Below are positions 15,308-32,593 of a DNA stretch of 64,000 bases, one piece after another. The position numbers and the translations under genes are program-made. The notes beneath the pieces were generated by a model that did not search any database, was not told the origin of the DNA, and was given only the letters and a program-made list of their open reading frames with translations. Numbering within the stretch: position 1 is the stretch's first letter; each line of letters opens with the position of its first letter. Where the stretch lies: the NCBI RefSeq assembly GCF_057098645.1, contig NZ_CM169472.1. The stretch is one strand, 5' to 3'.

Positions 15308-15320
15308 GCTGCTGACCTCA

Positions 15321-17444: not shown

Positions 17445-17669
17445 TCAGCGATTGCGGAAACATTCCATAACCTCGCGGTCACGGTCGGTTAATCGCTTCG
17501 CTGTGATGCGTTCTGCGCGTCCTGACGCTTTATCTTTATGCCCTGTTTCCTGTGTCTTCCATGCGTCACGCTGCCTTATAAGTCCACGGATAAGGCGGTT
17601 TTGTTCCCGCTCATTCATCAGCGTCATACATCCAGTTATTGCGGTTAGCGGCCCGTTCTTCCTCTTCAT
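17445..17669 (-). CDS. Hypothetical basic protein (74 aa) overlapping the 3-prime end of the HNH gene
   Basis: ATG at 17669 preceded by AGGTGG Shine-Dalgarno (5-nt spacer); out of frame with HNH; start uncertain. Confidence 0.4.
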   Translation of the reverse strand: MKRKNGPLTAITGCMTLMNEREQNRLIRGLIRQRDAWKTQETGHKDKASGRAERITAKRLTDRDREVMECFRNR

Positions 17670-18347: not shown

Positions 18348-18682
18348 TTTTCCGCGCCCTCACGACAAAGAATTTCAAGGCGTGTCCTGGCGGCATCCGG
18401 CAGCGGCTGCCCGATGATATTCAGTACACGCCCCGCCAGCGGCCCCGTACTGACCTTTATCCGGCTGGTGGCGTTGATGTCCTTCCGGTACCGTATCCAG
18501 ATCCTTACGGTACCAATCGCCAGCTCTGCACCCGATGAAATGGCCTCCTTGCTGCTGATCATGTTCACGCTTGCCCAGAGTGTGTGACCGTCCTCCCACG
18601 TTTCGAGTATTTCGCCGGTTATATCCCTGGTCTGTTTCAGGGTCTGAATCGTTACCCTGTCACGCAGTCGCCCTATGTTCAT
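18344..18682 (-). CDS. Head-tail adaptor / head closure protein (112 aa from MNIGRL)
   Basis: MNIGRLRDRVTIQ... typical of head-tail adaptor family; starts 4 nt inside the portal 3-prime end. Confidence 0.65.
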   Translation of the reverse strand: MNIGRLRDRVTIQTLKQTRDITGEILETWEDGHTLWASVNMISSKEAISSGAELAIGTVRIWIRYRKDINATSRIKVSTGPLAGRVLNIIGQPLPDAARTRLEILCREGAEK

Positions 18683-19890
18683 TCCGGTTTTTCTCCCTCG
18701 CTGATTTTTACTTCCTGTTTCCATGCCTGGCTGAACTCATCACCACCATCACGCGGGGACAGCCCTTCACGTTCGCGGGCTTCGTTCGGGCACATAACGC
18801 CGGATTTGATGCCGCGTTCATAGGTGGCAAAGCGTTCGCCAGGTGTGGCCCGTAACAGGTCCGCGCTGTCAAACTCCACCTGATACCGGATACCAGGTAC
18901 AGGCGAGGCCACCAGCAGGGCGTTTTTTATCTGCTGCTCAAAGTTCGCCAGCCACGGGCGCATCGTCATGGTGAGAAATGCGCGGCTTGCCTCGCTGAAA
19001 TTGCTGTAGGTGCTGTTGCTGTATTCCTGCAAAAAAATCGGCGAGACGTTGAACATTCGGGCGATGTCTTCAATGGTGAAGCGACGGGAGGCCAGCCATT
19101 CAGCATCCTGATTACTCATGCCCAGCTGCTGATAGCTCATACCCCCTTCAAGGATGGGCGTTTTTCCGGCGTTTCTGGCCCCTTTGTAGCGTTCCAGTGC
19201 GGCTAATGCCTGTTTGCCCTTCACGCCGTCCAGCCATTCGCCTGACGTGATAACCCCTGCCGCCATCATGCCATCACGCATCACGCTCGCGCCGTGGCGT
19301 TGTTGGGCCAGCCCAAGCCCCAGCGATTCGCGGCAGATGGTTACAGGTGAGCGCCCCATAAAACCGTCATCCGTGGAGTAACGAAGGTGGAGAACCTCCC
19401 ACGGTAAATAGTTGCGGGTGTTTCCGGTGTAGGCGTCAGTGATGCAGTAGCGCCAGTTGTGTTCGCCTGTCTGCTCCACGTTCACCGACTGCGGCGGGTA
19501 AGGATGTAAAGCCACCGGAAAACCATCACGCCCCCACTGAATCACCGCATAAGCATTACCGTTTAACAGGCAGTGGCGGATCATCATTCGCTTAAACTGG
19601 TAGGGAGTCTGCCACGCGTTCGGGCGCTCGTTGAGGATGTGATCGACCGGATGAGAATCAAGCCACTCTCGGGCCTCCTTCCCCTTCTCATTGCGTACCA
19701 GGTACAGGTAACACGGCATGGTAGCCACCGCCTCAGAGATGACCGTGACGGCGTTCATGACGGCGGGCAGTGATTCCGCTGTCCCCGATGATACGTACTC
19801 ACCCGCCCCCGTGTTCGATGTGCCAGCCAGCGCCATAAACTCATCAAGCGTCATGCTGCGCTGCTCTTTTTTTCTTCTGAAAGGCCACAT
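18679..19890 (-). CDS. Portal protein, HK97 family (403 aa)
   Basis: Size and position between prohead protease and connector genes. Confidence 0.8.
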   Translation of the reverse strand: MWPFRRKKEQRSMTLDEFMALAGTSNTGAGEYVSSGTAESLPAVMNAVTVISEAVATMPCYLYLVRNEKGKEAREWLDSHPVDHILNERPNAWQTPYQFKRMMIRHCLLNGNAYAVIQWGRDGFPVALHPYPPQSVNVEQTGEHNWRYCITDAYTGNTRNYLPWEVLHLRYSTDDGFMGRSPVTICRESLGLGLAQQRHGASVMRDGMMAAGVITSGEWLDGVKGKQALAALERYKGARNAGKTPILEGGMSYQQLGMSNQDAEWLASRRFTIEDIARMFNVSPIFLQEYSNSTYSNFSEASRAFLTMTMRPWLANFEQQIKNALLVASPVPGIRYQVEFDSADLLRATPGERFATYERGIKSGVMCPNEAREREGLSPRDGGDEFSQAWKQEVKISEGEKPE

Positions 19891-19891
19891 A

Positions 19892-20464
19892 TCACACCCC
19901 CGCTAAATCCGCCCACCAGCGGCGATTATCCGCACGCGGCATTTTTTCGGGGTGCTGCTCATACAGGGAACGGCGGGCCAGCTCCACGCCGGAATCGGGG
20001 TAAGCCGGTACCGATGTAACGGTAATTTCGTACAGTTCCGCCACCAGCACGGTGCGCACGCATGGATCTGTTGTGGTATCCCATACATCCTTACGGGAGC
20101 GAAAGCCAAAGCTCATCCCCGAGATGTCCCCACGCTTAACCAGTTCGATAACGTCGCGCCCTGTACTGGTATCCGGTGGGGTCAGTTCAAAGCGTAACCC
20201 TGTTTCGTCCTCTTCCAGTTTCAGCGTGCCGGAACGGGTGCGCCCCAGTAACATGCTGTGGTCATGCTCATACAGGCCGCGAACGTCATTACCCGCCGCA
20301 AGCCATTCAGTAAACGCTCCCCGCTGGAATTTTTCGTAAAACTCACCCCATAGCAGATCAGAAAGGTTATCCCAGCGAACAACGTAGCCTGTAAGCGTGT
20401 TGCTGGCGCTGGTGGTGATTTCCGATGACCGGATTTCCATACTCTTCATAATTTTTTCACCCAT
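19892..20464 (-). CDS. Prohead maturation protease, HK97 family (190 aa)
   Basis: Size and position between major capsid and portal genes. Confidence 0.8.
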   Translation of the reverse strand: MGEKIMKSMEIRSSEITTSASNTLTGYVVRWDNLSDLLWGEFYEKFQRGAFTEWLAAGNDVRGLYEHDHSMLLGRTRSGTLKLEEDETGLRFELTPPDTSTGRDVIELVKRGDISGMSFGFRSRKDVWDTTTDPCVRTVLVAELYEITVTSVPAYPDSGVELARRSLYEQHPEKMPRADNRRWWADLAGV

Positions 20465-20503
20465 AAAACACTAAAGGGGCTTTTAAGCCCCTTCTGTATG
20501 CTG

Positions 20504-21661
20504 TTAATCGTCGTCTTCCGGCAGTTCCAGAATCTTGATCGCGTTCGAATCCACCACGCCACCGCCTAAATATTTTTGCGTGAAAATTTTGATGAATCCT
20601 GGTTCTGTCAGGTTGTCCGGTCTGGTGCGAACACCTGTTTCGTGATCAACAATGTAGTAACCGCGTTTGAAGTCACCCAGGGCAATAACGTTATCAGGCA
20701 TAAACTCCAGATATTCGACCGGAAGGCCCAGCAACGTATCAGGATCACCCGCCTGTAAACGGTCGCGCCAGATATAATCACCGTTCGCGTTCTTCACCTT
20801 CTGAAGTTTTGCCGCCGTCGTGGAGTTAACCACCCAGACCGCGTTTTTGCGGTATTTTTTACGTAATGCAAATTTCAGGTCGATCAGCGGGTCCGCAGAT
20901 GTCCACGCCAGAGATTCGGAAGGTTTAATTACCTGCAACGTACCAAAATCACGCTCTTTGTCGTTCTTCTCTGCACGGGGTACGGATAAAAAACCTTTTG
21001 CTTTTTTGTCACCGTCGCCCACAACCAGATCGCTTTCTTCGGTTTCCGTGAAGGTGTCGCCAATCTCACCCGTCAGCCATGAAAGGATGTCCACATCGGA
21101 AAAATCCACGATTTCCTGTGTGGTGCGCGGGTACGCATAGACCGGATACAGCTTGATGCTCACCTCGTTAATCTGCGGGGTGCTGGTCTGTTCGCGTGCC
21201 TTACCCTCTTCACCGTGGTTAACGGTCGCACCGCCAGCGGAAACAAGCTGCTTAAACTCGTTGCTGCTGATTTTCTTCACGGTACAGATGCGGCGCATGG
21301 TGGATTCATCCGCCAGCATTCGCATGATTTCGGTGTTCAGTTCAGGGATAACGGTATAACCACCATCAGCGGGAACGCCTGTACTTAATGCGCGGGTTTC
21401 ACCTGTCAGAATGTAGTTGCGGAGTTCTGCGGGGTCAGTGGTCTGACTGCTTTTACCTGGCTTGCTGCGCTCTTCGTCTGCAATGGCTTCAAGGCGGGAA
21501 ATGTCTTTATCGAGGGATTCAGCTTTAGCGCGTAATTCGTCAAATTTTGCGCCCTCTGCATCGTTAAGGCTGCGGTTTTCTTTTTCCGCGTTCTCCAGCA
21601 TGTCGCGCATCTGATTTTTAATGGCGGTTTTCTGCTGGCGTAATTCGATTATTCTCGGCAT
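20504..21661 (-). CDS. Major capsid protein, HK97 fold, with N-terminal coiled-coil scaffolding (delta) domain
   Basis: Start taken at MPRIIELRQQ (ATG 21661) because the upstream codons of the 21706 ORF form a terminator hairpin; coiled-coil N-terminus then MCP-like body. Confidence 0.85.
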   Translation of the reverse strand: MPRIIELRQQKTAIKNQMRDMLENAEKENRSLNDAEGAKFDELRAKAESLDKDISRLEAIADEERSKPGKSSQTTDPAELRNYILTGETRALSTGVPADGGYTVIPELNTEIMRMLADESTMRRICTVKKISSNEFKQLVSAGGATVNHGEEGKAREQTSTPQINEVSIKLYPVYAYPRTTQEIVDFSDVDILSWLTGEIGDTFTETEESDLVVGDGDKKAKGFLSVPRAEKNDKERDFGTLQVIKPSESLAWTSADPLIDLKFALRKKYRKNAVWVVNSTTAAKLQKVKNANGDYIWRDRLQAGDPDTLLGLPVEYLEFMPDNVIALGDFKRGYYIVDHETGVRTRPDNLTEPGFIKIFTQKYLGGGVVDSNAIKILELPEDDD

Positions 21662-21699
21662 AAAAAAAAGTCCTGGGGTTAAGTAAGGAACTCCAGGAC
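21662..21699 (-). terminator. Intrinsic terminator immediately upstream of the capsid start codon
   Basis: Minus-strand RNA: GUCCUGG(AGUU)...(AACC)CCAGGAC stem followed by U8 and then AUG. Confidence 0.55.
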
Positions 21700-21751
21700 G
21701 CGGCAAACACTCAACCGTTTTTCATAAGGAAATCAGTAATCGCACCGATCG

Positions 21752-21801
21752 TTTTCCCGCCTGGTAATGAATATTGGCGAGCACATTAACAGGCGGGAAA
21801 A
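21752..21801 (-). promoter_or_regulatory. Long perfect hairpin in the capsid-operon leader (12-bp stem TTTTCCCGCCTG/CAGGCGGGAAAA, 26-nt loop)
   Basis: Inverted repeat read directly from the sequence. Confidence 0.45.
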
Positions 21802-21876
21802 TGGCCCCAGCGTCCTGGCACCACGGGCGAGAATAATCATGATTCAGTTCGGGTAAAATATGCCGATCCACTCAGT

Positions 21877-21906
21877 GAACAACGTGGAACAACCACGAAC
21901 AAATAA
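21877..21906 (+). promoter_or_regulatory. Third copy of the AACAACGTGGAACAA-N4-GAACAA motif, in the capsid-operon leader
   Basis: Same motif as at both island ends (14481-14508, 32483-32510). Confidence 0.35.
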
Positions 21907-21920
21907 TTTACAAAACATGA

Positions 21921-21943
21921 CAAAAAGCCGGATTGCTCCGGCT
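21921..21943 (-). terminator. Intrinsic terminator after the PerC-like gene
   Basis: Minus-strand AGCCGGA-GCAA-TCCGGCU hairpin followed by UUUUU. Confidence 0.5.
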
Positions 21944-21949
21944 GTGTGA

Positions 21950-22222
21950 TTATCTGTCCTGGTAATTTCGCCATATTTCATCACCAGCACCATCCATACC
22001 CATTTCGGCATAAGTGCGATCGACCGCCTTTTTCAGGTCTCCGTAATTATCCGGCGGCTCCGGTGGCCTCTGTGCCTTCCTGGAACATTCCAGCCGTCGC
22101 ATCGTGATATGATGCCGTTCCTTGTCTGTCTCCACCAGCTGCATGACTTCACCCCATCGCGCCGCCGCCCTCCGGTAAAAGCCTTTCGCCTCCAGTTCCT
22201 CCGCTATGCGGTCATGTACCAT
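21950..22222 (-). CDS. Small regulator, possibly PerC-family (90 aa from MVHDRIAEEL)
   Basis: ATG 22222 with GGGGGTGA Shine-Dalgarno, 11 nt after the ssb stop; FYRRAAARW motif reminiscent of PerC-like activators; family assignment is tentative. Confidence 0.4.
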   Translation of the reverse strand: MVHDRIAEELEAKGFYRRAAARWGEVMQLVETDKERHHITMRRLECSRKAQRPPEPPDNYGDLKKAVDRTYAEMGMDGAGDEIWRNYQDR

Positions 22223-22232
22223 CGTCACCCCC

Positions 22233-22643
22233 TCAGAACGAAATATCATCACCGTAAGGGTCATCGCCTCCCGCTGGTGGCTGATTACCCTGTGTGCCTG
22301 TGGTTTTGCGTCTGTTCCCGCCTGGACGTGCCGCGCGGGCACTGATTACGCTGTCTGCGATAACCTGCCAGCCCTGCCGCGTTTCTCCGTTCTGTCCGGT
22401 CCACTGGCTGACCTGCATCGTGCCGGATACGCTGGCAACATCGCCTTTTTGATGTTTAGCCAGGAAGTCGGCCTGTTTGCCAAATGCGATGACCGATAAC
22501 CATAACGTCGCCTGTCCGTCCTGTGCCTGGCTGCATGGCAAAGATACCGCCATACGCGCCAGCGTCATCGGTGTGCCCTTGCTGGTCTGTTTTACCTGCG
22601 GGTCGTCCACCAGCCGCCCGTAAGCGGCTATCTGTGCCGTCAT
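22233..22643 (-). CDS. ssb: Single-stranded DNA-binding protein (136 aa)
   Basis: OB-fold region plus Gly/Pro-rich tail ending with acidic DDISF-like C-terminus. Confidence 0.75.
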   Translation of the reverse strand: MTAQIAAYGRLVDDPQVKQTSKGTPMTLARMAVSLPCSQAQDGQATLWLSVIAFGKQADFLAKHQKGDVASVSGTMQVSQWTGQNGETRQGWQVIADSVISARAARPGGNRRKTTGTQGNQPPAGGDDPYGDDISF

Positions 22644-22891
22644 AATTCCACCTCTCCGGTTTTAACGTTGATGGTTGTTACCTGTTCCGCTTCGGCAATC
22701 TCCCGTTCTGTCAGCGTGGCAAAGTTTGCCGCCGCCGTGGTCATGAATGCGCTTATCAGGTCGGGATGTTCCTTCGCGTATCCTTCCCGCGTGTGGCGGT
22801 CTATCGTTCTGATTGCCACCTTTAAGGTGTGCTCAGTCATGTCTAACGCTTTATATTTTGGCTCTGTTCTGTCTCTGCGTTTTTGGGTCAT
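22640..22891 (-). CDS. Hypothetical protein (83 aa from MTQKRRDRTEP)
   Basis: ORF between ori and ssb; GAGAGG Shine-Dalgarno before ATG 22891; start uncertain. Confidence 0.45.
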   Translation of the reverse strand: MTQKRRDRTEPKYKALDMTEHTLKVAIRTIDRHTREGYAKEHPDLISAFMTTAAANFATLTEREIAEAEQVTTINVKTGEVEL

Positions 22892-22903
22892 TTCTCGCAA
22901 CCT

Positions 22904-23093
22904 CTCACTTTTTCGCCTCACTTTTTCAAGCGTCTCACTTCGTCGCAGTTGGGATTTTCGGTTTTTCTATGTGTGTGTTTCATAAGTATTTTTTTACCCC
23001 TCACTTTTGAGGATGTATACAGGTCGAAAAGTGAGGGAGAGCGGGCTAATTTTGGCCCTCTTTCTATCCCCCTCGCTTTTGCTCCTCACTTTT
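22904..23093. repeat. Iteron array, candidate island replication origin
   Basis: Six direct copies of (C)CTCACTTTT and one inverted copy (AAAAGTGAGG) immediately 3-prime of the rep gene, the last overlapping the rep stop codon. Confidence 0.6.
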
Positions 23094-24492
23094 ATAGCGG
23101 CGCTACATCATCCCCATCGATACGAATAACCCCATCTTTTTCCAGCTTGTACAGCCAGCGCCGGAAGTTTTTCATTTCATACCCCAGCTTTTTCATGTCA
23201 TCACGTAACAGCGGGATCGTGCACTTGTCGCCGTTCTGTGTGCGTGAACGGATGCACCCCCATAGCGCGGTATGGTTTTCCGTCTTGTTCCCTGCCTCCT
23301 CGATGCGCTCCAGTTCAACAGGAGGGCGCGGATCATCCACCACCACCAGCGACGTGATTAATTCACCGTCAGCGTCGGTAAAAAGCTCCACCACGCGTAA
23401 GTCATATGCGGCTTCTTTGAGTTCCTCCGCGTCCTTCATTTTGGTGCATGAGATAACCAGCGCTTCGCTTCCTGCGTCCTCCCTGCGTATCCGGTATTCA
23501 GCATCCAGCGAAGCACGAAATGCACTGGAACCGCGCGCGCCTTTCGTCTCATCCTTGCCGGAATGGTGAACCACCAGCACCGTGGCCCCTGTGCGTCGTT
23601 TCAGTTCGTCACAACCACGGATAAACGCCCCCATATCACGGGAATCATTTTCATCATTCCCACCAAAGCAACGCGCCAGCGTATCCAGAATAATCATGCG
23701 TACAGGTTTACCCGTTTCCCGCTCCACCTGACGGGCAGCGATAACCATTTCATCAACATCAAGCGGGGCAGCCGGAAAGATGGGGCGGTTTACCAGATAC
23801 AGATTTTTCACCTGCTCATCGTGCACAACCTCCCAGGCTTTTACACGACGCGGAACACCTATACCGCCTTCACCAACCACATAGAGAACCGCACCATGTG
23901 CAACCCTGCGGCCTCCCCACTGGCGACCAGTGGCAACATGGCACGCCCACGATCCGGCAAGGAATGATTTATAGGACCCGCTAGCCCCGTATATGCTGCA
24001 TAGCGATACCGCCGGAATAATCCCCTTAACCACGTAATCCAGTTGCGTGTCGTATCCGGTAGATCCAACGCTCATCGGTAGCGTGGTTTTTCGCTGGTGG
24101 TTTTTTTCTTCCGCCGGCTCTTTCCCGCGCACCCGTTCCAGGTATTCGCGCCAGTTCTCCCGCATATGGTTGTGCATCCCTTCGGGGTAATAATTCGCAT
24201 CAGTTACACCCGCCGCCGCCAGCTTGTGCGCAATGGCATTAATATTTGATGGCCTGATGTGGCCTGCCTTGTACAGCCGGACACAATAGCGCCCCTCGTC
24301 GATGATTCTCAGGTCTGCCAGTTCATCCAGTTGATCATCAGCCAGCACAACGGGAGGCACATTATCGCCAGCCAGTCGCCCGTCCTGTTCCTGCCACTGT
24401 TTCGCATGTGCCCAGGCATCACTACCCGCAAAAATAATGACTTCGGTCATCTTGTCGTAAGGCTGTTTTTTTAAGTTCGGTGCGCTTTTCAT
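23092..24492 (-). CDS. Replication initiation protein (primase/helicase-like RecA-fold NTPase, 466 aa)
   Basis: Deviant Walker A (GASGSYKS) and Walker B (MIILDTLARCF) motifs; position between small-gene operon and ori as in PICI pri-rep. Confidence 0.7.
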   Translation of the reverse strand: MKSAPNLKKQPYDKMTEVIIFAGSDAWAHAKQWQEQDGRLAGDNVPPVVLADDQLDELADLRIIDEGRYCVRLYKAGHIRPSNINAIAHKLAAAGVTDANYYPEGMHNHMRENWREYLERVRGKEPAEEKNHQRKTTLPMSVGSTGYDTQLDYVVKGIIPAVSLCSIYGASGSYKSFLAGSWACHVATGRQWGGRRVAHGAVLYVVGEGGIGVPRRVKAWEVVHDEQVKNLYLVNRPIFPAAPLDVDEMVIAARQVERETGKPVRMIILDTLARCFGGNDENDSRDMGAFIRGCDELKRRTGATVLVVHHSGKDETKGARGSSAFRASLDAEYRIRREDAGSEALVISCTKMKDAEELKEAAYDLRVVELFTDADGELITSLVVVDDPRPPVELERIEEAGNKTENHTALWGCIRSRTQNGDKCTIPLLRDDMKKLGYEMKNFRRWLYKLEKDGVIRIDGDDVAPL

Positions 24493-24614
24493 TTCTTGCC
24501 CCTGAATCCGTTAACTGCGTATTCCGCTCTATTCGATCACGGATTGGCATCGAAGTCCGATCAGCGATTCGCATCCATTCGATCAACCGGGAACTTAACT
24601 TTTTCTACCGCTTT

Positions 24615-25370
24615 TTAACGCGTTTTTTCGCTGCTTTCCACTACCGGGGGATTTTTCCTCAGTGACTCTCCCTGAAGGACCACTCGGTGTGAGTTATGTA
24701 CCAGTCTGTCCAGGATGGCATCTGCTGTTGTTGGGTTCTCCATCAGACCATGCCATTTATCTACCGGGAACTGGCTTACCACTATCGTGCTGCTTTGTCC
24801 GTAACGATCCTCTATGAGCTCCAGAAGGTCATTACACTGGGCGTTACTTAACTGTTCCAGCCCCAGATCGTCCAGGATTAGAACCTGTATTTTTTGCAAC
24901 TGTTTCAGATATTTCAGCCAGCTGCCATCAACACGTCCCTGAGCCAGTTGTTCCAGTAATCGCCCGGTTCTACAGTACCGGACGCTGTGTTTCTGTCGAC
25001 ATGCCTGTTCGCCCAGCGCATTGGCTATCCAGCTCTTGCCACATCCTGTCGGACCGGTTATCAGCAGGTTTTTCCTGTGGGTTATGTAGTGGCCGTTCAG
25101 CAGTTCTCTCATCTGTTCAGCCCGCAGACCTCTTGAGGCCGGATAGCGCAGCCCTTCCGGTGTTGCCTGGTATTTCAGGCCGGCATTTTTTCTCAACCGT
25201 GCCACACGGCTGTTTTCCCTGCTCAGAAGCTCGTCATCAACCAGCAGCGTCAGCCTTTCCTCGAACGACAGTTCGTCGTAGGTCTGAGGCGTTTCCCGCT
25301 GCCGTATCAGGCTCCCGGCCATCGCCGGGAGTTTCAGTTGGGTCAGTTTGTTTAACAGGTTATCACTCAT
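24615..25370 (-). CDS. istB: IS21-family helper ATPase IstB
   Basis: Walker A GPTGCGKS and typical IstB architecture; start taken at MSDNLLNKL. Confidence 0.85.
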   Translation of the reverse strand: MSDNLLNKLTQLKLPAMAGSLIRQRETPQTYDELSFEERLTLLVDDELLSRENSRVARLRKNAGLKYQATPEGLRYPASRGLRAEQMRELLNGHYITHRKNLLITGPTGCGKSWIANALGEQACRQKHSVRYCRTGRLLEQLAQGRVDGSWLKYLKQLQKIQVLILDDLGLEQLSNAQCNDLLELIEDRYGQSSTIVVSQFPVDKWHGLMENPTTADAILDRLVHNSHRVVLQGESLRKNPPVVESSEKTR

Positions 25371-25386
25371 ACTGTTGTTCCTTCTG

Positions 25387-26952
25387 TCAGTGGTAGTAGC
25401 CCGGACCACGCAGGTTTTCATGCTCTGAAGCATATGCCGGATGTTGTTCGCCCTGGCGGGATAATGGAAGCTCCAGGTTCTCCCGATGGTGACGCAGCAG
25501 ATTGTCGATAAAGCGTCTGTCAGGGGCGTTATAGTGCAGGGCAACGTAACAGGCCTTTTCCAGCCGTTCCGGGCCGTATTTTTTCTGAAGTGCCAGCAGC
25601 CCCAGAACTGCACGATAAGCCAGTTCCGGATGGGGTTTTGCCTTCAGCATGGATTCAACCACCCGGCCTGTGGACGGGCCCGTACGTTTTCCCTGCTCGA
25701 TCAGGCGTTCCGGTGTCCATGTCCCGTGCTGCCGGTGGCGCTCTGGCATGTGAAGCGGATTGGTTGTGTGTTTATATTCATGTGTGCTGCGCGGATGTTG
25801 CGCCACACACTGCCCCTTGTGCCAGAGCTGTACCACCGACTGCCCCGCCTTCAGTGACAGACGCTGACCGACCAGTTCGTGTGGAACGGAGTACCAGTGA
25901 CGGGCATATTCAACGTGGTAGTCAGGGCCAACCTTCACAGCTTTGTATTCCGTGTATTCATAAGGTGCCAGAGGCAGCGGAGAGAGTGCTGGCGCATCCA
26001 GTATGCGGAAGCGTTCTGCACGGGTTTGATTGCCGTACCCCTTCATTGGCCGGTTATTCATGTCTGTCAGTAACTCCCTAAGGCGCGCATTCAGCGCCCT
26101 GAGCGTGTGGAAGGTTTCATTACGGATGCGGGCAAGAAGCCATCGTTCAACGATGAGGACGCCGTTTTCTGCTTTTGGTTTATCTTTAGGTTTGCGTGGT
26201 CGGGCCGGGATGATAACCGTGCCATAGTGCTCAGCCAGTGCCTGATAACTGTCGTTGATGACAGGCTCATATCGATCGGCCTTTTTCACTGCGCTTCTGA
26301 GGTTATCGGGGATGAGCAGCTTCGGTACGCCGCCCAGGAAGGTCAGGCAACGGCTGTGGGCATTTAACCATGACATCATGTCCTGACCTTCGCACGCTTC
26401 AACGTAGGTATAGTTGGACGCCCCCATTACGGCCACGAAGATTGCCACGCGGCGTATCTCACCGGTGTCCGGATTAATAACAGGAACCGTAGGACCACAG
26501 AAGTCGATAAAAAGCTTTTCGCCGGCACGATGCTCCTGGCGCATGGAGAGACGTCGCGTTTTTTTCCACTCCCGGTAGCAACGGCAGAAGTGCGAGTATC
26601 CCATCGCTTTGTTACCCGCCTGTGCCTTGTATTCCATCCACAACAGTTGCCGCGTCACACCTGGTTTTCTCATTTCCGTATCGAAGTACAACATGTCAGG
26701 CATTACAAGCTCTGATGCAAAGGTGTCTTTGGGCGGAAAAATGAGTTTCTCCAGCGTGTCATGGGATATATCAGCAGGTAATGGCCATGACAGAGAAGAG
26801 GCTTTGAAGCGGGCAAGAACCTCAAAAACGGTTGAGGCGCTGATGTGTAACGTCAGTCCGATACAACGGTTAGTCAGCTTCTTGTCGAACTTGAGCTGAA
26901 GGATCTTAAAACAGGTTTCCATAGTGCTCCTGGATTTTCTCTTTCTGGACAT
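25387..26952 (-). CDS. istA: IS21-family transposase IstA
   Basis: N-terminal HTH then DDE integrase core; start ambiguous (26922, 26952 or 27033). Confidence 0.8.
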   Translation of the reverse strand: MSRKRKSRSTMETCFKILQLKFDKKLTNRCIGLTLHISASTVFEVLARFKASSLSWPLPADISHDTLEKLIFPPKDTFASELVMPDMLYFDTEMRKPGVTRQLLWMEYKAQAGNKAMGYSHFCRCYREWKKTRRLSMRQEHRAGEKLFIDFCGPTVPVINPDTGEIRRVAIFVAVMGASNYTYVEACEGQDMMSWLNAHSRCLTFLGGVPKLLIPDNLRSAVKKADRYEPVINDSYQALAEHYGTVIIPARPRKPKDKPKAENGVLIVERWLLARIRNETFHTLRALNARLRELLTDMNNRPMKGYGNQTRAERFRILDAPALSPLPLAPYEYTEYKAVKVGPDYHVEYARHWYSVPHELVGQRLSLKAGQSVVQLWHKGQCVAQHPRSTHEYKHTTNPLHMPERHRQHGTWTPERLIEQGKRTGPSTGRVVESMLKAKPHPELAYRAVLGLLALQKKYGPERLEKACYVALHYNAPDRRFIDNLLRHHRENLELPLSRQGEQHPAYASEHENLRGPGYYH

Positions 26953-27137
26953 TGACGTCTCCACTGGTTTAAACACGGCAATGGAGACTGTGGTGAAAAG
27001 AGTTAATTCCCGGAGTGACTGGCAGGATGCCAATCAATGATCGGAAGCATGCCAAATCGTGATCGATTGTGATGCCAAACTGTGATCGGAGATGGATGCC
27101 AAATCATGATCGATTCGAATGCCAAACTGCGATCGAT

Positions 27138-27434
27138 TCAGATGCCATTTTGCACGTTAACCATGGTTTTCAGCTTCTGGATGTTTGCCCGTGCCCTGGC
27201 GTTGCTGGTGGGCACGTTATGCGGCGCGGTCTGTACCAGAGAAAAATCACGCCGGAACTGATAAACAGGCATCACGCAATCATATTCGTAACCTTCACGG
27301 CGGTAAGTTACGCACCGTCCCGCCACGCCCTTAATCATTACCGTGCCGCCGTACTGGTCGCGGTAAATATCACCGCGCGTAAATTTAGGGTGAGTGTTGC
27401 CACTGGCAGTTAAGCCAGAATATTTAAGTTTCAT
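27138..27434 (-). CDS. Hypothetical protein (98 aa); last 6 codons replaced by IS21 end sequence
   Basis: Before the IS21 insertion this gene would end ...KLKTMVNGFRGKK with its TGA overlapping the rep ATG (24490-24492). Confidence 0.5.
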   Translation of the reverse strand: MKLKYSGLTASGNTHPKFTRGDIYRDQYGGTVMIKGVAGRCVTYRREGYEYDCVMPVYQFRRDFSLVQTAPHNVPTSNARARANIQKLKTMVNVQNGI

Positions 27435-27439
27435 TATTT

Positions 27440-27673
27440 TTATTCTCCGGTGTGCTGTTCTTTATATCTGTCGTGCAATAGATCTATTTTTTGCAGTTCC
27501 ATTATTACAGGCTCAAGTAGCGTTATTAATGCCGTGGCAATTCTTGATTTTTGTTTGTCGCGTTCATTATCTCCAAGCGTGTCAAGCCATATGCGCAATA
27601 TTTCCAGCATGTTTTCACTGTGAGAAAGTGCAAGAAATGCGCGGTCTATTGTTTCAAGGTAAATATCACGCAT
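27440..27673 (-). CDS. Hypothetical protein (77 aa)
   Basis: Coupled ORF (5-bp gap to next gene, 1-nt gap after previous stop). Confidence 0.5.
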   Translation of the reverse strand: MRDIYLETIDRAFLALSHSENMLEILRIWLDTLGDNERDKQKSRIATALITLLEPVIMELQKIDLLHDRYKEQHTGE

Positions 27674-27674
27674 A

Positions 27675-27896
27675 TTAATCCCCGTCCGTCGTTTTTCTTA
27701 AAACAACTTCTGTCACGAAATCAGCATAGTTAGCGGCAATATCAAGAATATTTAGCCCTGTATCCCTGTGCTCATCAGTGCAAAGAAAGAAAAAAGCCAC
27801 CAGCATAATTTCAGATATTGACGAAAGCGCATCAGCCGCATCATCAGGAACGCCGGAAAATTCCTGTTTCAGGGAATTAAAACGATCATCACGCAT
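27675..27896 (-). CDS. Hypothetical protein (73 aa)
   Basis: First ORF of the three-gene set upstream of rep. Confidence 0.45.
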   Translation of the reverse strand: MRDDRFNSLKQEFSGVPDDAADALSSISEIMLVAFFFLCTDEHRDTGLNILDIAANYADFVTEVVLRKTTDGD

Positions 27897-27929
27897 AACC
27901 CCGTTACTTTATTCGTACCCCTTATAATG

Positions 27930-28129
27930 GGGTGTTAGCCAGCCAGACCCGGCATGATTACTGCCCCCAGTCGTCCATGATCCGGGGGGTGATGTCACCG
28001 GGTCTGGTGGGGCGCTGGTAACCGCTAATAGGGGTCAGGTCAGGCACTTTTGCCGGGACCGTCTGTAACGTGGATGCCGGTACCTGCTCCCCGTGGTTAT
28101 CTGGTTAACCCATATACAAGGGAGACAGA
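27930..28129 (+). ncRNA. Candidate IS110-type bridge (guide) RNA in the 5-prime non-coding end
   Basis: Structured GC-rich non-coding flank upstream of the recombinase, where IS110-group elements encode their bridge RNA; not verified by folding. Confidence 0.25.
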
Positions 28130-29326
28130 ATGACCGAATCCAGCGATTACGAATCCGTCCAGGTCTTTATCGGCGTTGATGTCGGTAAAGATACGCATCA
28201 CGCTGTAGCCATTAATCGTTCAGGTAAACGCCTGTTCGATAAAGCATTACCCAACGACGAAAACAAACTCAGGTCGCTAATATCTGACCTGAAACAACAT
28301 GGTCAGATACTGCTGGTTGTTGATCAGCCAGCTACCATCGGTGCGTTACCTGTCGCCGTTGCCCGCTCAGAAGGAGTCCTTGTCGGATACCTCCCTGGAC
28401 TGGCCATGCGCCGCATAGCCGACTTACACGCCGGTGAAGCTAAAACTGATGCTCGTGACGCTGCCATCATTGCCGAAGCTGCCCGTACCCTGCCTCACGC
28501 GCTACGCACGCTGAAACTGGCTGACGAGCAAATCGCCGAACTCTCCATGCTCTGCGGCTTCGATGATGATCTTGCCGCACAGACAACGCAGGCCAGCAAC
28601 CGTATCCGCGGCCTTCTGACCCAGATACATCCGGCACTGGAGCGCGTTCTCGGTCCGAGACTTGATCACCCGGCGGTACTCGATCTTCTCCAGCGATATC
28701 CCTCACCAGAAAAACTCGCTTCGCTGGGTGAGAAGAAGCTGGCAGCCCAGCTCTGCAAACTTGCGCCTCGTCTGGGTAAACGCCTTGCAGCAGACATAGC
28801 TCAGGCACTGGCCGAACAAACCGTCGTCGTTCCCGGCACGAATGCCGCTGCCGTAGTACTGCCACGTCTGGCACTCCAGCTCATCACGCTGCGTAAGCAA
28901 AGAGACGAGGTGGTGCTTGAGGTAGAACAGCGAGTTCTTGCTCACCCTCTTTACCCGGTCCTGACCAGTATGCCCGGAGTCGGTGTCAGGACCGCAGCCA
29001 GACTCCTCACCGAGGTCGCCTGCCGCGCCTTCGCCTCTGCCGCACATCTCGCTGCTTATGCTGGCCTTGCGCCGGTAACTCGGCGATCCGGCTCGTCAAT
29101 ACGCGGTGAGCATCCCTCGCGACGGGGTAATAAAGCTCTCAAACGGGCGTTGTTCCTGTCGGCCTTCGCCGCGCTCAGGGATCCGCTCTCCAGGGCTTAC
29201 TACACCCGCAAAATGAGTCAGGGAAAACGACACAATCAGGCGCTTATCGCCCTGGCGAGACGACGCTGCGACGTTCTGTTCGCCATGATGCGCGACGGGA
29301 CTTTTTATACCCCGCAGGCGTCATAA
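28130..29326 (+). CDS. IS110-family transposase/recombinase (398 aa)
   Basis: N-terminal IGVDVGKDTHHAVAIN (RuvC-like DEDD) motif and C-terminal serine-containing domain. Confidence 0.85.
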   Translation: MTESSDYESVQVFIGVDVGKDTHHAVAINRSGKRLFDKALPNDENKLRSLISDLKQHGQILLVVDQPATIGALPVAVARSEGVLVGYLPGLAMRRIADLHAGEAKTDARDAAIIAEAARTLPHALRTLKLADEQIAELSMLCGFDDDLAAQTTQASNRIRGLLTQIHPALERVLGPRLDHPAVLDLLQRYPSPEKLASLGEKKLAAQLCKLAPRLGKRLAADIAQALAEQTVVVPGTNAAAVVLPRLALQLITLRKQRDEVVLEVEQRVLAHPLYPVLTSMPGVGVRTAARLLTEVACRAFASAAHLAAYAGLAPVTRRSGSSIRGEHPSRRGNKALKRALFLSAFAALRDPLSRAYYTRKMSQGKRHNQALIALARRRCDVLFAMMRDGTFYTPQAS

Positions 29327-29339
29327 CATGCTTGACAAC

Positions 29340-29561
29340 TTAATAGGGGCACCCCCCATTTTCACAATCAGCAATAAGAATATTTTTAGCGTCATTCAGC
29401 GACCGCGTGGCGGTGTATCGGATACATTCCAGGGCGAACTGTGTCCGGTCTTTCTGTTCTTCTCCCTGCGCAAGCTCTGCAGTGCATTCAATATCGATAA
29501 GCGCGTGCATCAGCGTAGTGAGCGCGGCGGCTGCTGCGTCCGGTGTGGTTTTATTGCACAT
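29340..29561 (-). CDS. Hypothetical Cys-containing protein (73 aa, MCNKTTPDAAAAALTTLMHALIDIECTAEL...)
   Basis: AGGAGG Shine-Dalgarno 8 nt upstream; ATG overlaps the end of the preceding gene by 11 bp; stop is 14 nt from the IS110 transposase stop. Confidence 0.5.
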   Translation of the reverse strand: MCNKTTPDAAAAALTTLMHALIDIECTAELAQGEEQKDRTQFALECIRYTATRSLNDAKNILIADCENGGCPY

Positions 29562-29751
29562 GGCACACCTCCTGACGAATACGGGCGGCGAATACAGCAA
29601 CACAACCGGACGGGCAACGGCTACGCGCTTCGCGTTCCGTCCAGGCGGTTACGTGGATGATTTGAGATTCTCCGGCACTCAGTGCCAGAAAACGCCACAC
29701 AAAGGCCGTTTGTGTGTGTACAAGGTGTGGTATATGATTTACAGCAACCAT
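29551..29751 (-). CDS. Hypothetical Cys/His-rich protein (66 aa, MVAVNHIPHLVHTQTAFVWRF...CPSGC...CHVQ)
   Basis: AGGAG Shine-Dalgarno 5 nt upstream of ATG; first gene of the leftward small-gene operon. Confidence 0.55.
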   Translation of the reverse strand: MVAVNHIPHLVHTQTAFVWRFLALSAGESQIIHVTAWTEREARSRCPSGCVAVFAARIRQEVCHVQ

Positions 29752-29780
29752 AACGGCTCCTAGTTTACGTTGTTGGTTAG

Positions 29781-29825
29781 AAGCCCTGCGAGTGGTAACG
29801 ACACTTGCGGGGCTTTGTCTTTTCA
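29781..29825 (+). terminator. Strong hairpin with U-rich tail, best formed on plus-strand RNA
   Basis: 14-bp stem AAGCCCUGCGAGUG/CACUUGCGGGGCUU with two G-U pairs on the plus strand (C-A mismatches on the minus strand), followed by UGUCUUUUC. Confidence 0.45.
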
Positions 29826-29845
29826 TCGATTACCTTGATAAAGGT

Positions 29846-29924
29846 GTCAGCCACTATATTAGTAACGGGTGTCAGCCACGTCAATAGTGTTTTTCCGTTT
29901 TCTTGTGTGTATACTGTCAGCCAC
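29846..29924 (+). promoter_or_regulatory. Three direct repeats TGTCAGCCAC (29846, 29870, 29915) overlapping the promoter of the RHH gene
   Basis: Exact 10-bp repeats; the third overlaps a TATACT -10-like hexamer about 30 bp upstream of the RHH start. Confidence 0.5.
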
Positions 29925-29945
29925 CTAATAACGAGGAAATCAGAT

Positions 29946-30125
29946 ATGGCAACAAAAGCAGTTAATGCAAAATCCAAAAAGCTTGAGGCTCGAGTACCAC
30001 ACGCAATAGCTGATGCTGTAGAAAATTTAAAGGAAGATGGCGAAAGTACAGGGCAATTTATCGTTTCGGCACTTGAAGGCGAGATCAAACGCCGCCAGCG
30101 CCGCAAGGCCAAAGAATCAGAATAA
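29946..30125 (+). CDS. Ribbon-helix-helix (CopG/Arc-like) DNA-binding protein (59 aa)
   Basis: MATKAVNAKSKKLEARVPHAIADAVENLKEDGESTGQFIVSALEGEIKRRQ: beta-strand then two helices pattern; plus strand, divergent from the small-gene operon. Confidence 0.6.
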   Translation: MATKAVNAKSKKLEARVPHAIADAVENLKEDGESTGQFIVSALEGEIKRRQRRKAKESE

Positions 30126-30167
30126 TCACTATCAGCGCCGTGGTGTGAGGTATTACGGCGCATTGCT

Positions 30168-30356
30168 ATGCAGGACAACACAATGACCGATAAAGAATTG
30201 ACCAAAACATTATCACCGGCACGGAAAAGACGGCGCAGAAAGATAGAGCATGAATCAGAAAGATTCGCGCCATGTGCTTTTGCCCTTGAGCAATTCCTTA
30301 AAGAATACAGGGAAAAGCGCTCATTGCAGGTATGGCAACGAACTGAACCAGACTGA
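30168..30356 (+). CDS. Hypothetical highly basic protein (57-62 aa, contains RKRRRRK)
   Basis: ORF directly downstream of the RHH gene and upstream of an intrinsic terminator; weak ribosome-binding site. Confidence 0.4.
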   Translation: MQDNTMTDKELTKTLSPARKRRRRKIEHESERFAPCAFALEQFLKEYREKRSLQVWQRTEPD

Positions 30357-30451
30357 TTGCATTGCCCACCAGCCTGATAGCGGCTATCATCCCCGTGCTT
30401 ATGTTTGGGATCACACACACAAACGGCGCAGCGGGTTATCTGTTCAGAAAG

Positions 30452-30479
30452 GCGGCTCCATTTCGGGGCCGCTTTTTTT
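30452..30479 (+). terminator. Intrinsic terminator of the plus-strand RHH cassette
   Basis: GCGGCUCC-AUUUC-GGGGCCGC hairpin followed by UUUUUUU. Confidence 0.6.
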
Positions 30480-30625
30480 ATGCCTGAAAAACCCCAATTT
30501 TGTGGTTTTCCAGTCTCACCAGGGCGAACGAATCCCCGCCCACGTTCTGGCGTATATTCAATCTTCATGGTTATAGCTCTGTGTTCAGATGATTGATGTG
30601 TGGCGGCTGTGTGCCGCCAGCGTGA

Positions 30626-30814
30626 TTAATGAACTGCCTTGCAGCTATCCTTCCAGGCCAGAACCTCGGATAAAGACCAGCCAACGGAACGACCGCCAAG
30701 TTTACGACGTGATGGGAATTGTCCGGCCTTTTCCAGGCGGTAGCGACACGTACGGCTAAGGCCGGTTAGTTTTTCGCATTCTTTTTCACGTATAAACCGA
30801 TCAGTGCTTAACAC
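30626..30814 (-). CDS. alpA: AlpA-family phage regulatory protein (62 aa)
   Basis: LTGLSRTCRYRLEKAGQFPSRRKLGGRSVGWSLSEVLAW matches the AlpA/Xis-like HTH family pattern. Confidence 0.8.
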   Translation of the reverse strand: MLSTDRFIREKECEKLTGLSRTCRYRLEKAGQFPSRRKLGGRSVGWSLSEVLAWKDSCKAVH

Positions 30815-31188
30815 TATTGCCCCCTTTCGTTTCTTAAAGAGTTATTTCGTGTTCTATTGCGTTGAGATGTGTCTGATTGTGTCAGGATGATTCAGAGTTG
30901 GCAAATGTTGAGGCCGTATGGTTTACAGAAAGAGGAATAATCAGGATAAAATCATTTAAATTCATGTTAATACAAAGACATAAAATATTGTTTCATGCCT
31001 TTTTTCTCGCTATTTAAAGAGTGATTCGCTAGTGTATAAAAAACCAGTGACACATTAAAAATCAGCTACTTATAAATCTGTACACTTTTTCGCCTCTTGT
31101 TCGTAGTTGTTCCGCATTGTTGCTCATTGTTGCACGTTGTATCTGTTCGCATATCCAGTATGCGCATACTGAAAAAATACGAAAAAAA

Positions 31189-32406
31189 TTATTTTCTTCT
31201 GGCTACTGGTAGCGTGGTTACGTTTTCATGTGTTCCCGCCAGTATCCCTAACCGCTCCATCCACATATCCAGCGCATTGCGTTTAGCATCCAGATAACGG
31301 GAATGATTATAAACTCGCTGCATTCCTGGCATCTGGTGGCCTGTAAGCTGCTCCACGACATGCGGATCAACGCCTAAATCGTTCAGCATGGTTGTAAAGG
31401 TGCGCCGGATGTCATGCAGTGACCAGTGAGGATGATTAAGCCTCCTGTGCGCTAATCTTCCATACTGCGATACGCTGGCCTCCTGTTTCACTTCCCCCAG
31501 CAATAAGCCCGTGTGCCTGTTCTGCTCCACCAGCTGCGTGACGAACGGCAGGATCGCTTCCGGTATGGGCCGGAATATTGCGACCTTCGTTTTGCTGTGC
31601 TCCTTCGGAACGGTCCATAGCATTTCCGTAAAATCCCACTCCCCGATCTCCGATAGCCTCAGTTCTACCGTCCTGGCTCCGAAGACAATCAGGAGGCGGA
31701 TTAACGCGACGTAGTAAGGGGAAAATATTTTTTTGTCCAGTGCCTGCAATAATTCGCCAAGTTCTTTGTTACTTAAGACACGTTCGCTTATATCCGGTTT
31801 TTTCCCAACGTCCGCCACGTTCAGATCGTCCAGAACGTTGCTGATTGCATAGCGCCGCCTACGGCAGAACTTAAGCGCCTGTTTGCACGCCTGTAGCACG
31901 AATCCGGCAGTAACAGGCGTTCGCTTTGCCACCTGGTCAAAACAGGCCAGCCAGTGCCGTAGCTCGCATTTATCCAGCGGCATAGCACCAATCTGCTGTA
32001 TTACGTGATTATTAAGTCGCCTTTTCAGGGCGATATAATCCACGCGCTTTTCCTTTACGTAATACTCAAGCCAGTAGGTGAGCGCATCGCCAACCGTTAC
32101 GGGCTTTAACGCTTCCTGTACGGTGTAATTCATCTCATGACGTGGATTTTTCCCCTCAGCCAGCCATGTGCGACACTGTGCGGCTTTTTCCCTAGCTGCT
32201 TTCAGGCTCAGATCAGGATAACTTCCCAGCTTAATGCGTTCGGGTCGTGTCTCCCTTCCCGTTCCGGCCCTGTATGTGAAATACCAGGTCAATTTCCCTG
32301 ATGTTAAATATTTCACGCTCAGGTTTCCGCCATCACTATAAAACGTGTTTTTCTCCGCTGGCTTACCATGAAGTTTCCTTAGCAAGGTATCGCTCAGTTT
32401 GTTCAT
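31189..32406 (-). CDS. int: Tyrosine integrase, P4-like (about 405 aa)
   Basis: Arm-binding N-terminal domain plus catalytic R..HxxR..Y signature (HDIRRTF...RYLD); start at ATG 32406 (GTG 32418 also possible). Confidence 0.9.
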   Translation of the reverse strand: MNKLSDTLLRKLHGKPAEKNTFYSDGGNLSVKYLTSGKLTWYFTYRAGTGRETRPERIKLGSYPDLSLKAAREKAAQCRTWLAEGKNPRHEMNYTVQEALKPVTVGDALTYWLEYYVKEKRVDYIALKRRLNNHVIQQIGAMPLDKCELRHWLACFDQVAKRTPVTAGFVLQACKQALKFCRRRRYAISNVLDDLNVADVGKKPDISERVLSNKELGELLQALDKKIFSPYYVALIRLLIVFGARTVELRLSEIGEWDFTEMLWTVPKEHSKTKVAIFRPIPEAILPFVTQLVEQNRHTGLLLGEVKQEASVSQYGRLAHRRLNHPHWSLHDIRRTFTTMLNDLGVDPHVVEQLTGHQMPGMQRVYNHSRYLDAKRNALDMWMERLGILAGTHENVTTLPVARRK

Positions 32407-32444
32407 TGCTCTGCTCACGTTTTACCCCCTCTTTACGAAAAAGT

Positions 32445-32510
32445 GACTACACCAGTGACTACACCGATCGTTGCACAAAGGGCTACAACGTGAAACAAGC
32501 TGGAACAAGG
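32445..32510 (+). promoter_or_regulatory. Right-arm repeat cluster: GACTACACC x2 then ACAACGTGAAACAAGCTGGAACAAGG
   Basis: Between the int start and the chromosomal junction; mirrors the left-arm cluster. Confidence 0.4.
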
Positions 32511-32593
32511 AAAATCACAAATCTGTTGATAATCAAAAACATAATGCACAGCCTGAAACATTATGAAACAGCAAAAAACACTAAATGATAAAA

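What the first reader, a model, noticed from the sequence alone, without database searches (positions are those of the whole stretch)
24509..27161. IS21-family element inserted six codons before the end of the gene preceding rep
The IS (24516-27154) has a 7-bp CGTTAAC target duplication. Removing it restores an ORF ending ...KLKTMVNGFRGKK whose stop overlaps the rep ATG. The insertion therefore uncouples rep from its upstream operon and is probably polar, so the island may be replication-defective or re-wired to IS-borne promoters.
Basis: seen in the sequence. Interest (0 to 1): 0.5.

Follow-up and report, generated by a model that had tools for sequence, protein, structure and literature searches.

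The report
Ordinary IS21-family insertion in a phage satellite
A well-known jumping gene (an IS21-family insertion sequence of the ISSso4 type) has landed between two overlapping genes of a phage-satellite island in E. coli; this is a real but routine event, and its effect on the island's replication gene is plausible but untested.

Summary
Window 24516-27154 is a complete 2639-bp IS21-family element. It carries istA (511 aa) and istB (251 aa), has TG...CA ends with repeated terminal motifs, and is flanked by a 7-bp duplication, CGTTAAC. It is 100% identical to full copies at other sites in many E. coli genomes.

In-silico excision restores a 99-aa DUF4222 gene ending GFRGKK, whose stop overlaps the ATG of a RepA-family helicase gene (ATGA). 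At least 490 E. coli genomes carry this uninterrupted arrangement. None of 5,426 complete genomes carries this insertion.

The host element is a capsid-forming PICI of the EcCIEDL933 type.

The functional reading is only partly supported:
- The IS points the same way as the island operon.
- It has no predicted intrinsic terminator on that strand and no consensus outward promoter.
- rep keeps its own ribosome-binding site.
- Polarity is therefore plausible but may be incomplete.

An ISEc20 element (27903-29351) lies upstream in the opposite orientation. The island ends are mismatched: a phoQ/roxA-type core on the left and a tqsA-type core on the right. That implies an inversion or a misassembly, and probably an island that cannot excise.

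Verdict: ordinary, low interest.

The parts
24516..27154 (-). Complete IS21-family insertion sequence (PGAP label 'ISSso4 family'), 2639 bp. It is transcribed in the same direction as the island operon.
   Evidence: 100% full-length matches at unrelated loci in other E. coli genomes. Those copies have their own flanks and duplications. Ends are 5'-TG...CA-3'.
24509..24515 (.). Target-site duplication CGTTAAC, rep-side copy
   Evidence: Present as a single copy in empty sites.
27155..27161 (.). Target-site duplication CGTTAAC, DUF4222-side copy
25387..26922 (-). istA, DDE transposase, 511 aa
   Evidence: Pfam Mu-transpos_C_2 at 3e-20. Pfam rve at 1.5e-7 (32.1 bits, just below the 32.6-bit cut-off). 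Same length as the annotated istA WP_045147483.1.
24615..25370 (-). istB, AAA+ helper ATPase, 251 aa
   Evidence: Pfam IstB_IS21 at 1e-60. PGAP name 'IS21-like element ISSso4 family helper ATPase IstB'.
27026..27154 (-). Left terminal inverted-repeat region, with about five copies of the motif ATGCCAAAnnnnGATCG. It abuts the body of the DUF4222 gene.
   Evidence: Direct-repeat families D1 and D2, and inverted pairs I1-I13
24516..24600 (-). Right terminal inverted-repeat region, with two to three copies of the same motif in inverted orientation. It ends 24 nt from the rep ATG.
   Evidence: D14, D15, I2, I6-I9
27138..27434 (-). Interrupted DUF4222 gene. 93 native codons are followed by 5 IS-encoded codons (VQNGI) and a stop inside the IS end.
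   Evidence: The DUF4222 domain (residues 16-68, 2e-23) is untouched.
24489..24509 (-). Orphaned last six codons (GFRGKK) and stop of DUF4222. This stretch carries the rep Shine-Dalgarno (AGGGG) and the ATGA stop/start overlap.
23092..24492 (-). rep: RepA-family helicase, 466 aa, intact
   Evidence: Pfam AAA_25 at 2e-43. PHROG primase/helicase families. 99.4-100% nt identity to IS-free islands and the same length.
22900..23095 (-). Putative island origin. The iteron AAGTGAG occurs five times directly and once inverted, immediately downstream of rep.
   Evidence: Near-identical in three other islands. The function is inferred by analogy with PICI origins.
14360..32591 (-). Host element: a capsid-forming PICI-type satellite, 18.2 kb (14.1 kb without the two IS). 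Gene order is int, alpA, early genes, DUF4222, rep, ssb, perC, capsid, protease, portal, head closure, connector, HNH, terS, terL.
   Evidence: Pfam. Synteny with annotated islands. Boundaries from empty-site alignments.
27903..29351 (+). Second insertion, ISEc20 (IS110 family, 398-aa transposase at 28130-29326). It is opposite in orientation to the island operon and lies between rep and the alpA-proximal early region.

Best explanation
**Shown (confidence about 0.97).** An active ISSso4-type IS21-family element made a simple transposition into a capsid-forming PICI of an E. coli chromosome. The element encodes the IstA DDE transposase and the IstB AAA+ target-capture ATPase. A 7-bp staggered cut in the target produced the CGTTAAC duplication. 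The insertion falls in codon 94 of the 99-codon DUF4222 gene, 17 nt upstream of the overlapping rep start codon.

Both flanking genes stay essentially intact. DUF4222 swaps its last 6 residues for 5 IS-encoded ones. rep keeps its start codon and Shine-Dalgarno. They are now 2.6 kb apart.

**Inferred (confidence about 0.55).** After helper-phage induction, AlpA-dependent transcription of the island operon would have to cross ISEc20 in antisense orientation and then the whole IS21 element to reach rep. Translational coupling from DUF4222 is lost. Two untranslated gaps, of 215 nt and 122 nt, are exposed. Induced Rep expression, and that of the downstream ssb, perC and packaging genes, is therefore expected to be strongly reduced rather than necessarily abolished. 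A low, AlpA-independent trickle from the weak istAB promoter may read into rep.

Together with the mismatched attachment cores and the 18.2-kb size, the island is most likely an immobilised, recently disabled satellite. Both IS copies are 99.7-100% identical to copies elsewhere, and all island ORFs are still intact.
For: - IS identity and boundaries.
- Duplication and duplication-length range.
- Empty sites and conserved ATGA overlap.
- Uniqueness of the insertion: (no place covers at least 80% of a 300-bp junction query in 5,426 genomes).
- Co-orientation and absence of minus-strand terminator-like sites.
- No outward promoter.
- rep Shine-Dalgarno retained; sizes of the untranslated gaps.
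- Island type and intact late genes: with the cf-PICI definition and alpA requirement in bioRxiv 10.1101/2022.09.08.507074.
- Second IS.
- Heterologous attachment cores.
- Weak single-copy IS21 promoter, with -35 in the right TIR and -10 in the left TIR: PMC10122671.
Against: Nothing argues against the structural part.

For the functional part:
- No expression data exist.
- The absence of predicted intrinsic terminators and the co-orientation allow substantial read-through.
- The consensus scans are crude and cannot see Rho-dependent termination or non-consensus promoters.
- The island's native promoter was not mapped here.
- The heterologous ends could reflect an assembly error rather than a real inversion.
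Confidence: 0.8

Rival explanations
1. The insertion is functionally near-silent. Transcription reads through the co-oriented IS, rep initiates from its own Shine-Dalgarno, and island replication is close to normal. Only DUF4222's last residues change.
For: There is no minus-strand terminator-like site in 24300-27500. The rep ribosome-binding site and ATG are intact. istA and istB are translated for most of the IS length, which limits Rho access.
Against: Two untranslated gaps of 215 and 122 nt are exposed. Translational coupling is lost. An additional antisense-oriented ISEc20 lies upstream in the same operon. IS insertions in operons are classically polar (general knowledge).
Confidence: 0.2
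2. rep is re-wired to an IS-borne promoter. This could be an outward promoter in the right TIR or the istAB promoter. Either would give helper-independent Rep expression.
For: IS21 carries a -35 box in its right TIR (PMC10122671). No terminator is predicted between istB and rep, so istAB transcripts can run into rep.
Against: No -35/-10 pair reaching 8 of 12 matches lies in the last 130 nt before rep, and the flank offers no usable -10. The single-copy IS21 promoter is weak, and IstA binding occludes it. Constitutive firing of an unexcised origin would probably be counter-selected (inference).
Confidence: 0.15
3. The IS is not a simple insertion. It would be a recombination scar between two IS copies, part of a composite transposon, or an assembly artefact.
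For: The same window shows signs of large-scale rearrangement (heterologous island ends). One other copy of this IS, on pGF60-D, lacks a proper duplication, with only 3 bp matching.
Against: The 7-bp duplication is perfect, and the flanks rejoin into a sequence found contiguous in 490 genomes. There is no second copy of the IS end in the window.
Confidence: 0.03

Closest known systems
ISSso4-type elements of the IS21 family (istA/istB; prototypes IS21, IS5376, IS100)
   Same: It has two tandem genes (a DDE transposase and an IstB AAA+ ATPase), TG/CA termini, multiple repeated motifs in both ends, a 4-8 bp duplication and a length of about 2.6 kb. It is identical at nucleotide level to copies annotated by PGAP as the ISSso4 family.
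   Different: Nothing of substance differs. Only the insertion site is new: it is absent from 5,426 complete E. coli genomes. The exact ISfinder name could not be checked, because ISfinder is not available here.
Capsid-forming PICIs (cf-PICI), prototype EcCIEDL933 (bioRxiv 10.1101/2022.09.08.507074)
   Same: It carries int, alpA and rep, plus capsid, prohead protease, portal, head-closure and connector proteins, HNH, TerS and TerL. It has no tail genes. It is about 14 kb without the IS elements.
   Different: This copy carries two IS insertions. Its left end has the phoQ/roxA-site core and its right end the tqsA-site core, so it is a rearranged and probably non-excisable derivative. Direct nucleotide comparison with EcCIEDL933 itself was not done.
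Classical polar IS mutations in operons (IS1/IS2 in gal and lac)
   Same: An IS lies between the promoter-proximal and distal genes of a co-transcribed, translationally coupled gene set.
   Different: Here the IS is co-oriented and has no predicted intrinsic terminator, and the distal gene keeps its own ribosome-binding site. The degree of polarity is unknown.
Classical (non-capsid-forming) E. coli PICIs sharing the same early module, for example the tqsA island of strain PE164
   Same: It has the same int-alpA-...-DUF4222-repA-ssb-perC module, with the same 4-nt DUF4222/repA overlap.
   Different: The late module differs: terminase small subunit, head decoration protein and another capsid type, instead of the full HK97-type capsid and packaging set.

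Membership tests
IS21 family insertion sequence | Two consecutive genes: istA (DDE transposase) followed by istB (AAA+ helper ATPase) | tested here: met
   Pfam Mu-transpos_C_2 (3e-20) for the 511-aa ORF. Its rve match (1.5e-7, 32.1 bits) falls just below the 32.6-bit cut-off. IstB_IS21 at 1e-60 for the 251-aa ORF. The two genes are 16 nt apart.
IS21 family insertion sequence | Terminal inverted repeats ending 5'-TG...CA-3', with multiple repeated transposase-binding motifs (L1/L2..., R1/R2...) | tested here: met
   Ends are TGCAAAATGG... and ...GGAATACGCA. The motif ATGCCAAAnnnnGATCG occurs about five times at the left end and two to three times at the right end. The family description is in PMC10122671.
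IS21 family insertion sequence | Short target-site duplication (4-8 bp) | tested here: met
   7 bp here. 4-7 bp in eight other identical copies.
IS21 family insertion sequence | Discrete mobile unit found at different loci with the same boundaries | tested here: met
   299 records hold a copy covering at least 80% of it, and many are 100% identical over 1-2639.
IS21 family insertion sequence | IstA/IstB-dependent transposition activity | not testable with these tools
   Only inferred, from intact ORFs and multi-copy expansion (up to 34 places per genome).
Capsid-forming PICI (cf-PICI) | PICI core genes int, alpA and rep | tested here: met
   Phage_integrase plus Arm-DNA-bind_3, Phage_AlpA, and the AAA_25 RepA-family helicase.
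Capsid-forming PICI (cf-PICI) | Own capsid and packaging set (major capsid, protease, portal, head-tail connectors, HNH, TerS, TerL) without tail genes | tested here: met
   All eight are recognised by Pfam and full length. No tail genes lie between phoQ and tqsA.
Capsid-forming PICI (cf-PICI) | Integrated at a specific attB and flanked by matching core repeats, so excisable | tested here: not met
   The left core is AAATATGTCC (phoQ/roxA site) and the right core is TGCTGTTAT (tqsA site). This copy is a rearranged derivative, or the assembly is chimeric.
Capsid-forming PICI (cf-PICI) | Induction, replication and transfer dependent on a helper phage and on alpA | not testable with these tools
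   Known for EcCIEDL933. Not testable for this copy.
Polar IS mutation | Transcription-terminating signals inside the IS in the orientation of the operon | tested here: inconclusive
   No intrinsic-terminator-like site on the minus strand. Rho-dependent termination cannot be predicted reliably. The maximum C/G ratio in the 215-nt gap is 1.8.
Polar IS mutation | Reduced expression of distal genes | not testable with these tools
   Needs RNA or protein measurements.

The most novel reading that the evidence does not exclude
The two IS insertions and the att-site mismatch may have converted a mobile capsid-forming satellite into a fixed chromosomal locus. Its replication gene would now be fed only by IS21 read-through. 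That would give helper-independent, low-level in-situ firing of the island origin, or a domesticated capsid gene cluster. This would be a snapshot of satellite domestication driven by IS elements and by inter-island recombination that inverted roughly 0.5 Mb of the terminus region.
Probability: 0.07. Interest if true: 0.45.

Novelty: already known. Interest (0 to 1): 0.15.

Why it matters
It matters little beyond strain-level annotation. The locus is a clean example of how IS elements and recombination between related islands disable phage satellites.

Practically, this cf-PICI copy should not be counted as functional or mobile in satellite surveys. The DUF4222 and rep genes should be annotated as an IS-split operon rather than as independent genes. 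The mismatched island ends flag either a large chromosomal inversion or an assembly error that should be checked.

Tried and rejected
- **Same insertion elsewhere.** I searched 5,426 complete E. coli genomes with a 300-bp junction query and found none.
- **Same phoQ-island-tqsA arrangement.** A 22.7-kb query found none; maximum coverage was 71%, against about 82% expected.
- **Outward promoter at the rep-proximal IS end.** I used the consensus tool and a relaxed scan requiring at least 8 of 12 matches. Nothing lies within 130 nt of rep, so the hybrid-promoter idea was rejected.
- **Intrinsic terminators in the IS on the operon strand.** None were found.
- **Target-site consensus.** Ten insertion sites of this IS showed none.
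- **Crossover point between the two parental islands.** Sliding identity to two reference islands was uninformative, because both are mosaics at 95-100%.
- **Long direct repeats near both island ends.** I first took the 21-23-nt repeats (ACTACACC...ACTACACCG) for att cores. Empty-site alignments showed they lie inside the island and are probably arm-type sites. The true cores are the short sequences at the phoQ and tqsA junctions.
- **Technical.** Several fetched loci (L002, L006-L012, L014, L015) never appeared in the Python sandbox. I read them through DNA alignment instead.
- **Not attempted.** Metagenome or GTDB scans for the junction (low expected value), the ISfinder name, and direct comparison with the EcCIEDL933 sequence.
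Full report
**Observation.** The finding's coordinates are exact. CGTTAAC occurs at 24509-24515 and 27155-27161. Between them lies a 2639-bp unit that begins TGCG... and ends ...TGCA on the + strand.

On the minus strand the unit carries a 511-aa ORF at 25387-26922. It matches Pfam Mu-transpos_C_2 (3e-20) and, just below the curated cut-off, rve (32.1 against 32.6 bits). Sixteen nucleotides downstream is a 251-aa ORF at 24615-25370, which matches IstB_IS21 at 1e-60. Both ends carry several copies of the motif ATGCCAAAnnnnGATCG, about five at the istA-proximal end and two to three at the other. This is the multi-repeat TIR architecture described for IS21 elements (PMC10122671).

The same 2639 bp occur at 100% identity, end to end, on many E. 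coli chromosomes and plasmids. 225 genomes hold a copy covering at least 80% of it, with up to 34 places per genome. PGAP labels its istB 'IS21-like element ISSso4 family'. Eight other copies that I inspected have duplications of 4, 5, 5, 6, 6, 6, 7 and 7 bp and no common target sequence. A ninth, on a small colicin plasmid, has no proper duplication. The 7-bp duplication here is therefore typical.

**Empty site.** Joining 24515 to 27162 gives a sequence that aligns in a single piece across the junction in E. coli genomes, at up to 98.6% identity. 490 genomes reach at least 80% coverage. In strain AF39 the site reads ...ACCATGATTAACGGATTCAGGGGCAAGAAATGAAAAGC, with one copy of the heptamer.

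The restored ORF is 99 aa and ends KLKTMVNGFRGKK. Its TGA (24491-24489) overlaps the ATG (24492-24490) of the next gene. In three IS-free islands (AF39, FDAARGOS_1283, PE164) the same two genes are annotated as a 300-bp 'DUF4222 domain-containing protein' and a 'helicase RepA family protein', 1401 bp in AF39 and FDAARGOS_1283 and 1407 bp in PE164, with a 4-nt overlap. The DUF4222 proteins end GFRGKK or VFRGKK.

It is not met. No complete E. coli genome in the collection has this particular insertion.

**What the IS sits in.** The surrounding 18.2 kb (about 14360-32591) is a capsid-forming PICI-type satellite. Its genes, all on the minus strand, are:
- tyrosine integrase (31189-32418)
- AlpA (30626-30814)
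- small early genes
- DUF4222
- RepA-family helicase (23092-24492; AAA_25, with PHROG primase/helicase relatives)
- SSB and PerC
- HK97-type capsid, prohead protease and portal
- head-closure and connector proteins
- HNH, TerS and TerL

All are full length and there are no tail genes. This is the gene set that defines cf-PICIs such as the 15.4-kb EcCIEDL933, whose induction needs alpA and a helper phage (bioRxiv 10.1101/2022.09.08.507074).

Immediately downstream of rep is a conserved iteron cluster, with AAGTGAG five times directly and once inverted, at 22900-23095. I take this to be the island origin, by analogy with other PICIs.

**Consequences for DUF4222 and rep.** The Pfam domain of DUF4222 (residues 16-68) is untouched. 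Only the last six residues are replaced, by VQNGI. rep is intact, at 99.4-100% identity to IS-free islands. It retains its AGGGG Shine-Dalgarno 6 nt upstream of the ATG, because the last 24 nt of DUF4222 stayed attached to it.

The IS is co-oriented with the operon, so island transcripts enter at the left TIR and leave through the right TIR. The consensus scan finds no terminator-like hairpin on that strand anywhere in 24300-27500. It finds no promoter-like site on that strand either. A relaxed scan (at least 8 of 12 matches) finds only weak sites inside the IS and none in the 130 nt before rep. In IS21 itself the right TIR carries only a -35 box and the single-copy promoter is weak. The flank here offers no usable -10.

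What is certain is the loss of translational coupling and the interposition of 2.6 kb, including untranslated stretches of 215 and 122 nt. Polarity is plausible but may be partial. An outward IS promoter is unlikely. Weak read-through from istAB into rep is possible. None of this can be decided in silico.

**Other lesions in the same island.** Two further features bear on the 'replication-defective' idea.

First, a 1449-bp ISEc20 (IS110 family; transposase at 28130-29326, + strand) is inserted at 27903-29351. The site is defined by the break in homology with AF39 and PE164. It lies at the junction of two small early genes and is oriented against the operon. rep is thus separated from the alpA-proximal region by two IS elements.

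Second, the island's flanks do not match each other.
- The left flank is phoP-phoQ (12228-14359), with the phoQ/roxA-site junction GAATAAATATGTCC.
- The right flank is the 3' part of tqsA followed by pntBA, with the tqsA-site junction AAAATGCTGTTATTC.
- Alignment with the empty K-12 sites and with islands properly integrated at each site shows two different attachment cores.
- K-12 has these loci about 0.49 Mb apart. Relative to K-12 coordinates, the phoQ/roxA-site island of FDAARGOS_1283 lies in the opposite orientation to the tqsA-site island of AF39.

The simplest reading is homologous recombination between two related islands, which inverted the intervening segment. An assembly chimera is the alternative. 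No complete E. coli genome shows the same arrangement.

With heterologous cores, Int-mediated excision should fail. At 18.2 kb the element also exceeds the roughly 15-kb cf-PICI unit size, which may be too large for its small capsids (inference).

**Age.** Both IS copies are 99.7-100% identical to copies elsewhere, and every island ORF is still open. The disabling events are therefore recent.

**Verdict.** This is a real, precisely described, routine insertion of a catalogued IS into a catalogued type of satellite. The functional half is reasonable but unproven, and it is overshadowed by the ISEc20 insertion and the mismatched island ends. Interest is low.

Noticed in passing
window 27903-29351: A second IS sits in the same island. 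It is ISEc20 (IS110 family, 398-aa DEDD transposase on the + strand), inserted at the junction of two small early genes with at most 2 bp of duplication. It is oriented against the island operon. Copies elsewhere share about 20 nt of flanking similarity, which suggests target specificity.
   Followed up: partly
window 14354-14367 and 32587-32604 (flanks 12228-14359 phoPQ; 32616-36510 'tqsA-pntBA): The island ends belong to two different attachment sites: phoQ/roxA on the left and tqsA on the right. These loci are about 0.49 Mb apart in K-12. That implies an inversion by recombination between two inverted islands, or a chimeric assembly. The arrangement is not seen in 5,426 complete E. coli genomes.
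   Followed up: partly
window 14445-14465 and 32444-32466: Tandem 12-nt units lie just inside each island end: ATTAACTACACC on the left and AGTGACTACACC on the right. They differ in three central bases between the two site types and are probably arm-type integrase-binding sites.
   Followed up: partly
window 22900-23095: An iteron cluster (AAGTGAG, five direct copies and one inverted) lies directly downstream of rep. It is almost invariant in three other islands and is the likely island replication origin.
   Followed up: partly
window 49958-52423 (IS5 transposase 50818-51798): An IS5-family element splits uidC into an N-terminal 174-aa fragment and a C-terminal 268-aa fragment. The adjacent uidB ORF (52462-53508) covers only residues 110-457, so it is probably frameshifted or truncated as well.
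   Followed up: no
window 373-1353: Another IS5-family transposase gene (326 aa) gives the same family match and score as the one in uidC. It lies left of an EAL-domain gene, an mlrA-like regulator gene, iraM and icd.
   Followed up: no
window 21950-22342: The island's perC-family gene is intact here (PerC domain 5e-43). It is annotated as a pseudogene (frameshift or internal stop) in the AF39 and FDAARGOS_1283 islands.
   Followed up: no
L013 (E. coli PE164, NZ_CP114128.1) 8841-20455: A tqsA-integrated island has the same int-alpA-DUF4222-repA-ssb-perC early module but a different, non-capsid-forming late module (terS, head decoration protein, another capsid type). This shows modular exchange between classical PICIs and cf-PICIs.
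   Followed up: no
L001, L005-L012 (other copies of the IS): Other copies of this IS interrupt mostly accessory or defence-type genes. Examples are a dynamin-family protein, a TOTE-system primase, a phage terminase, a nuclease/DEAD-box helicase pair and a colicin plasmid relaxase. Strain GF60 carries at least 29 chromosomal places plus copies on four plasmids.
   Followed up: no
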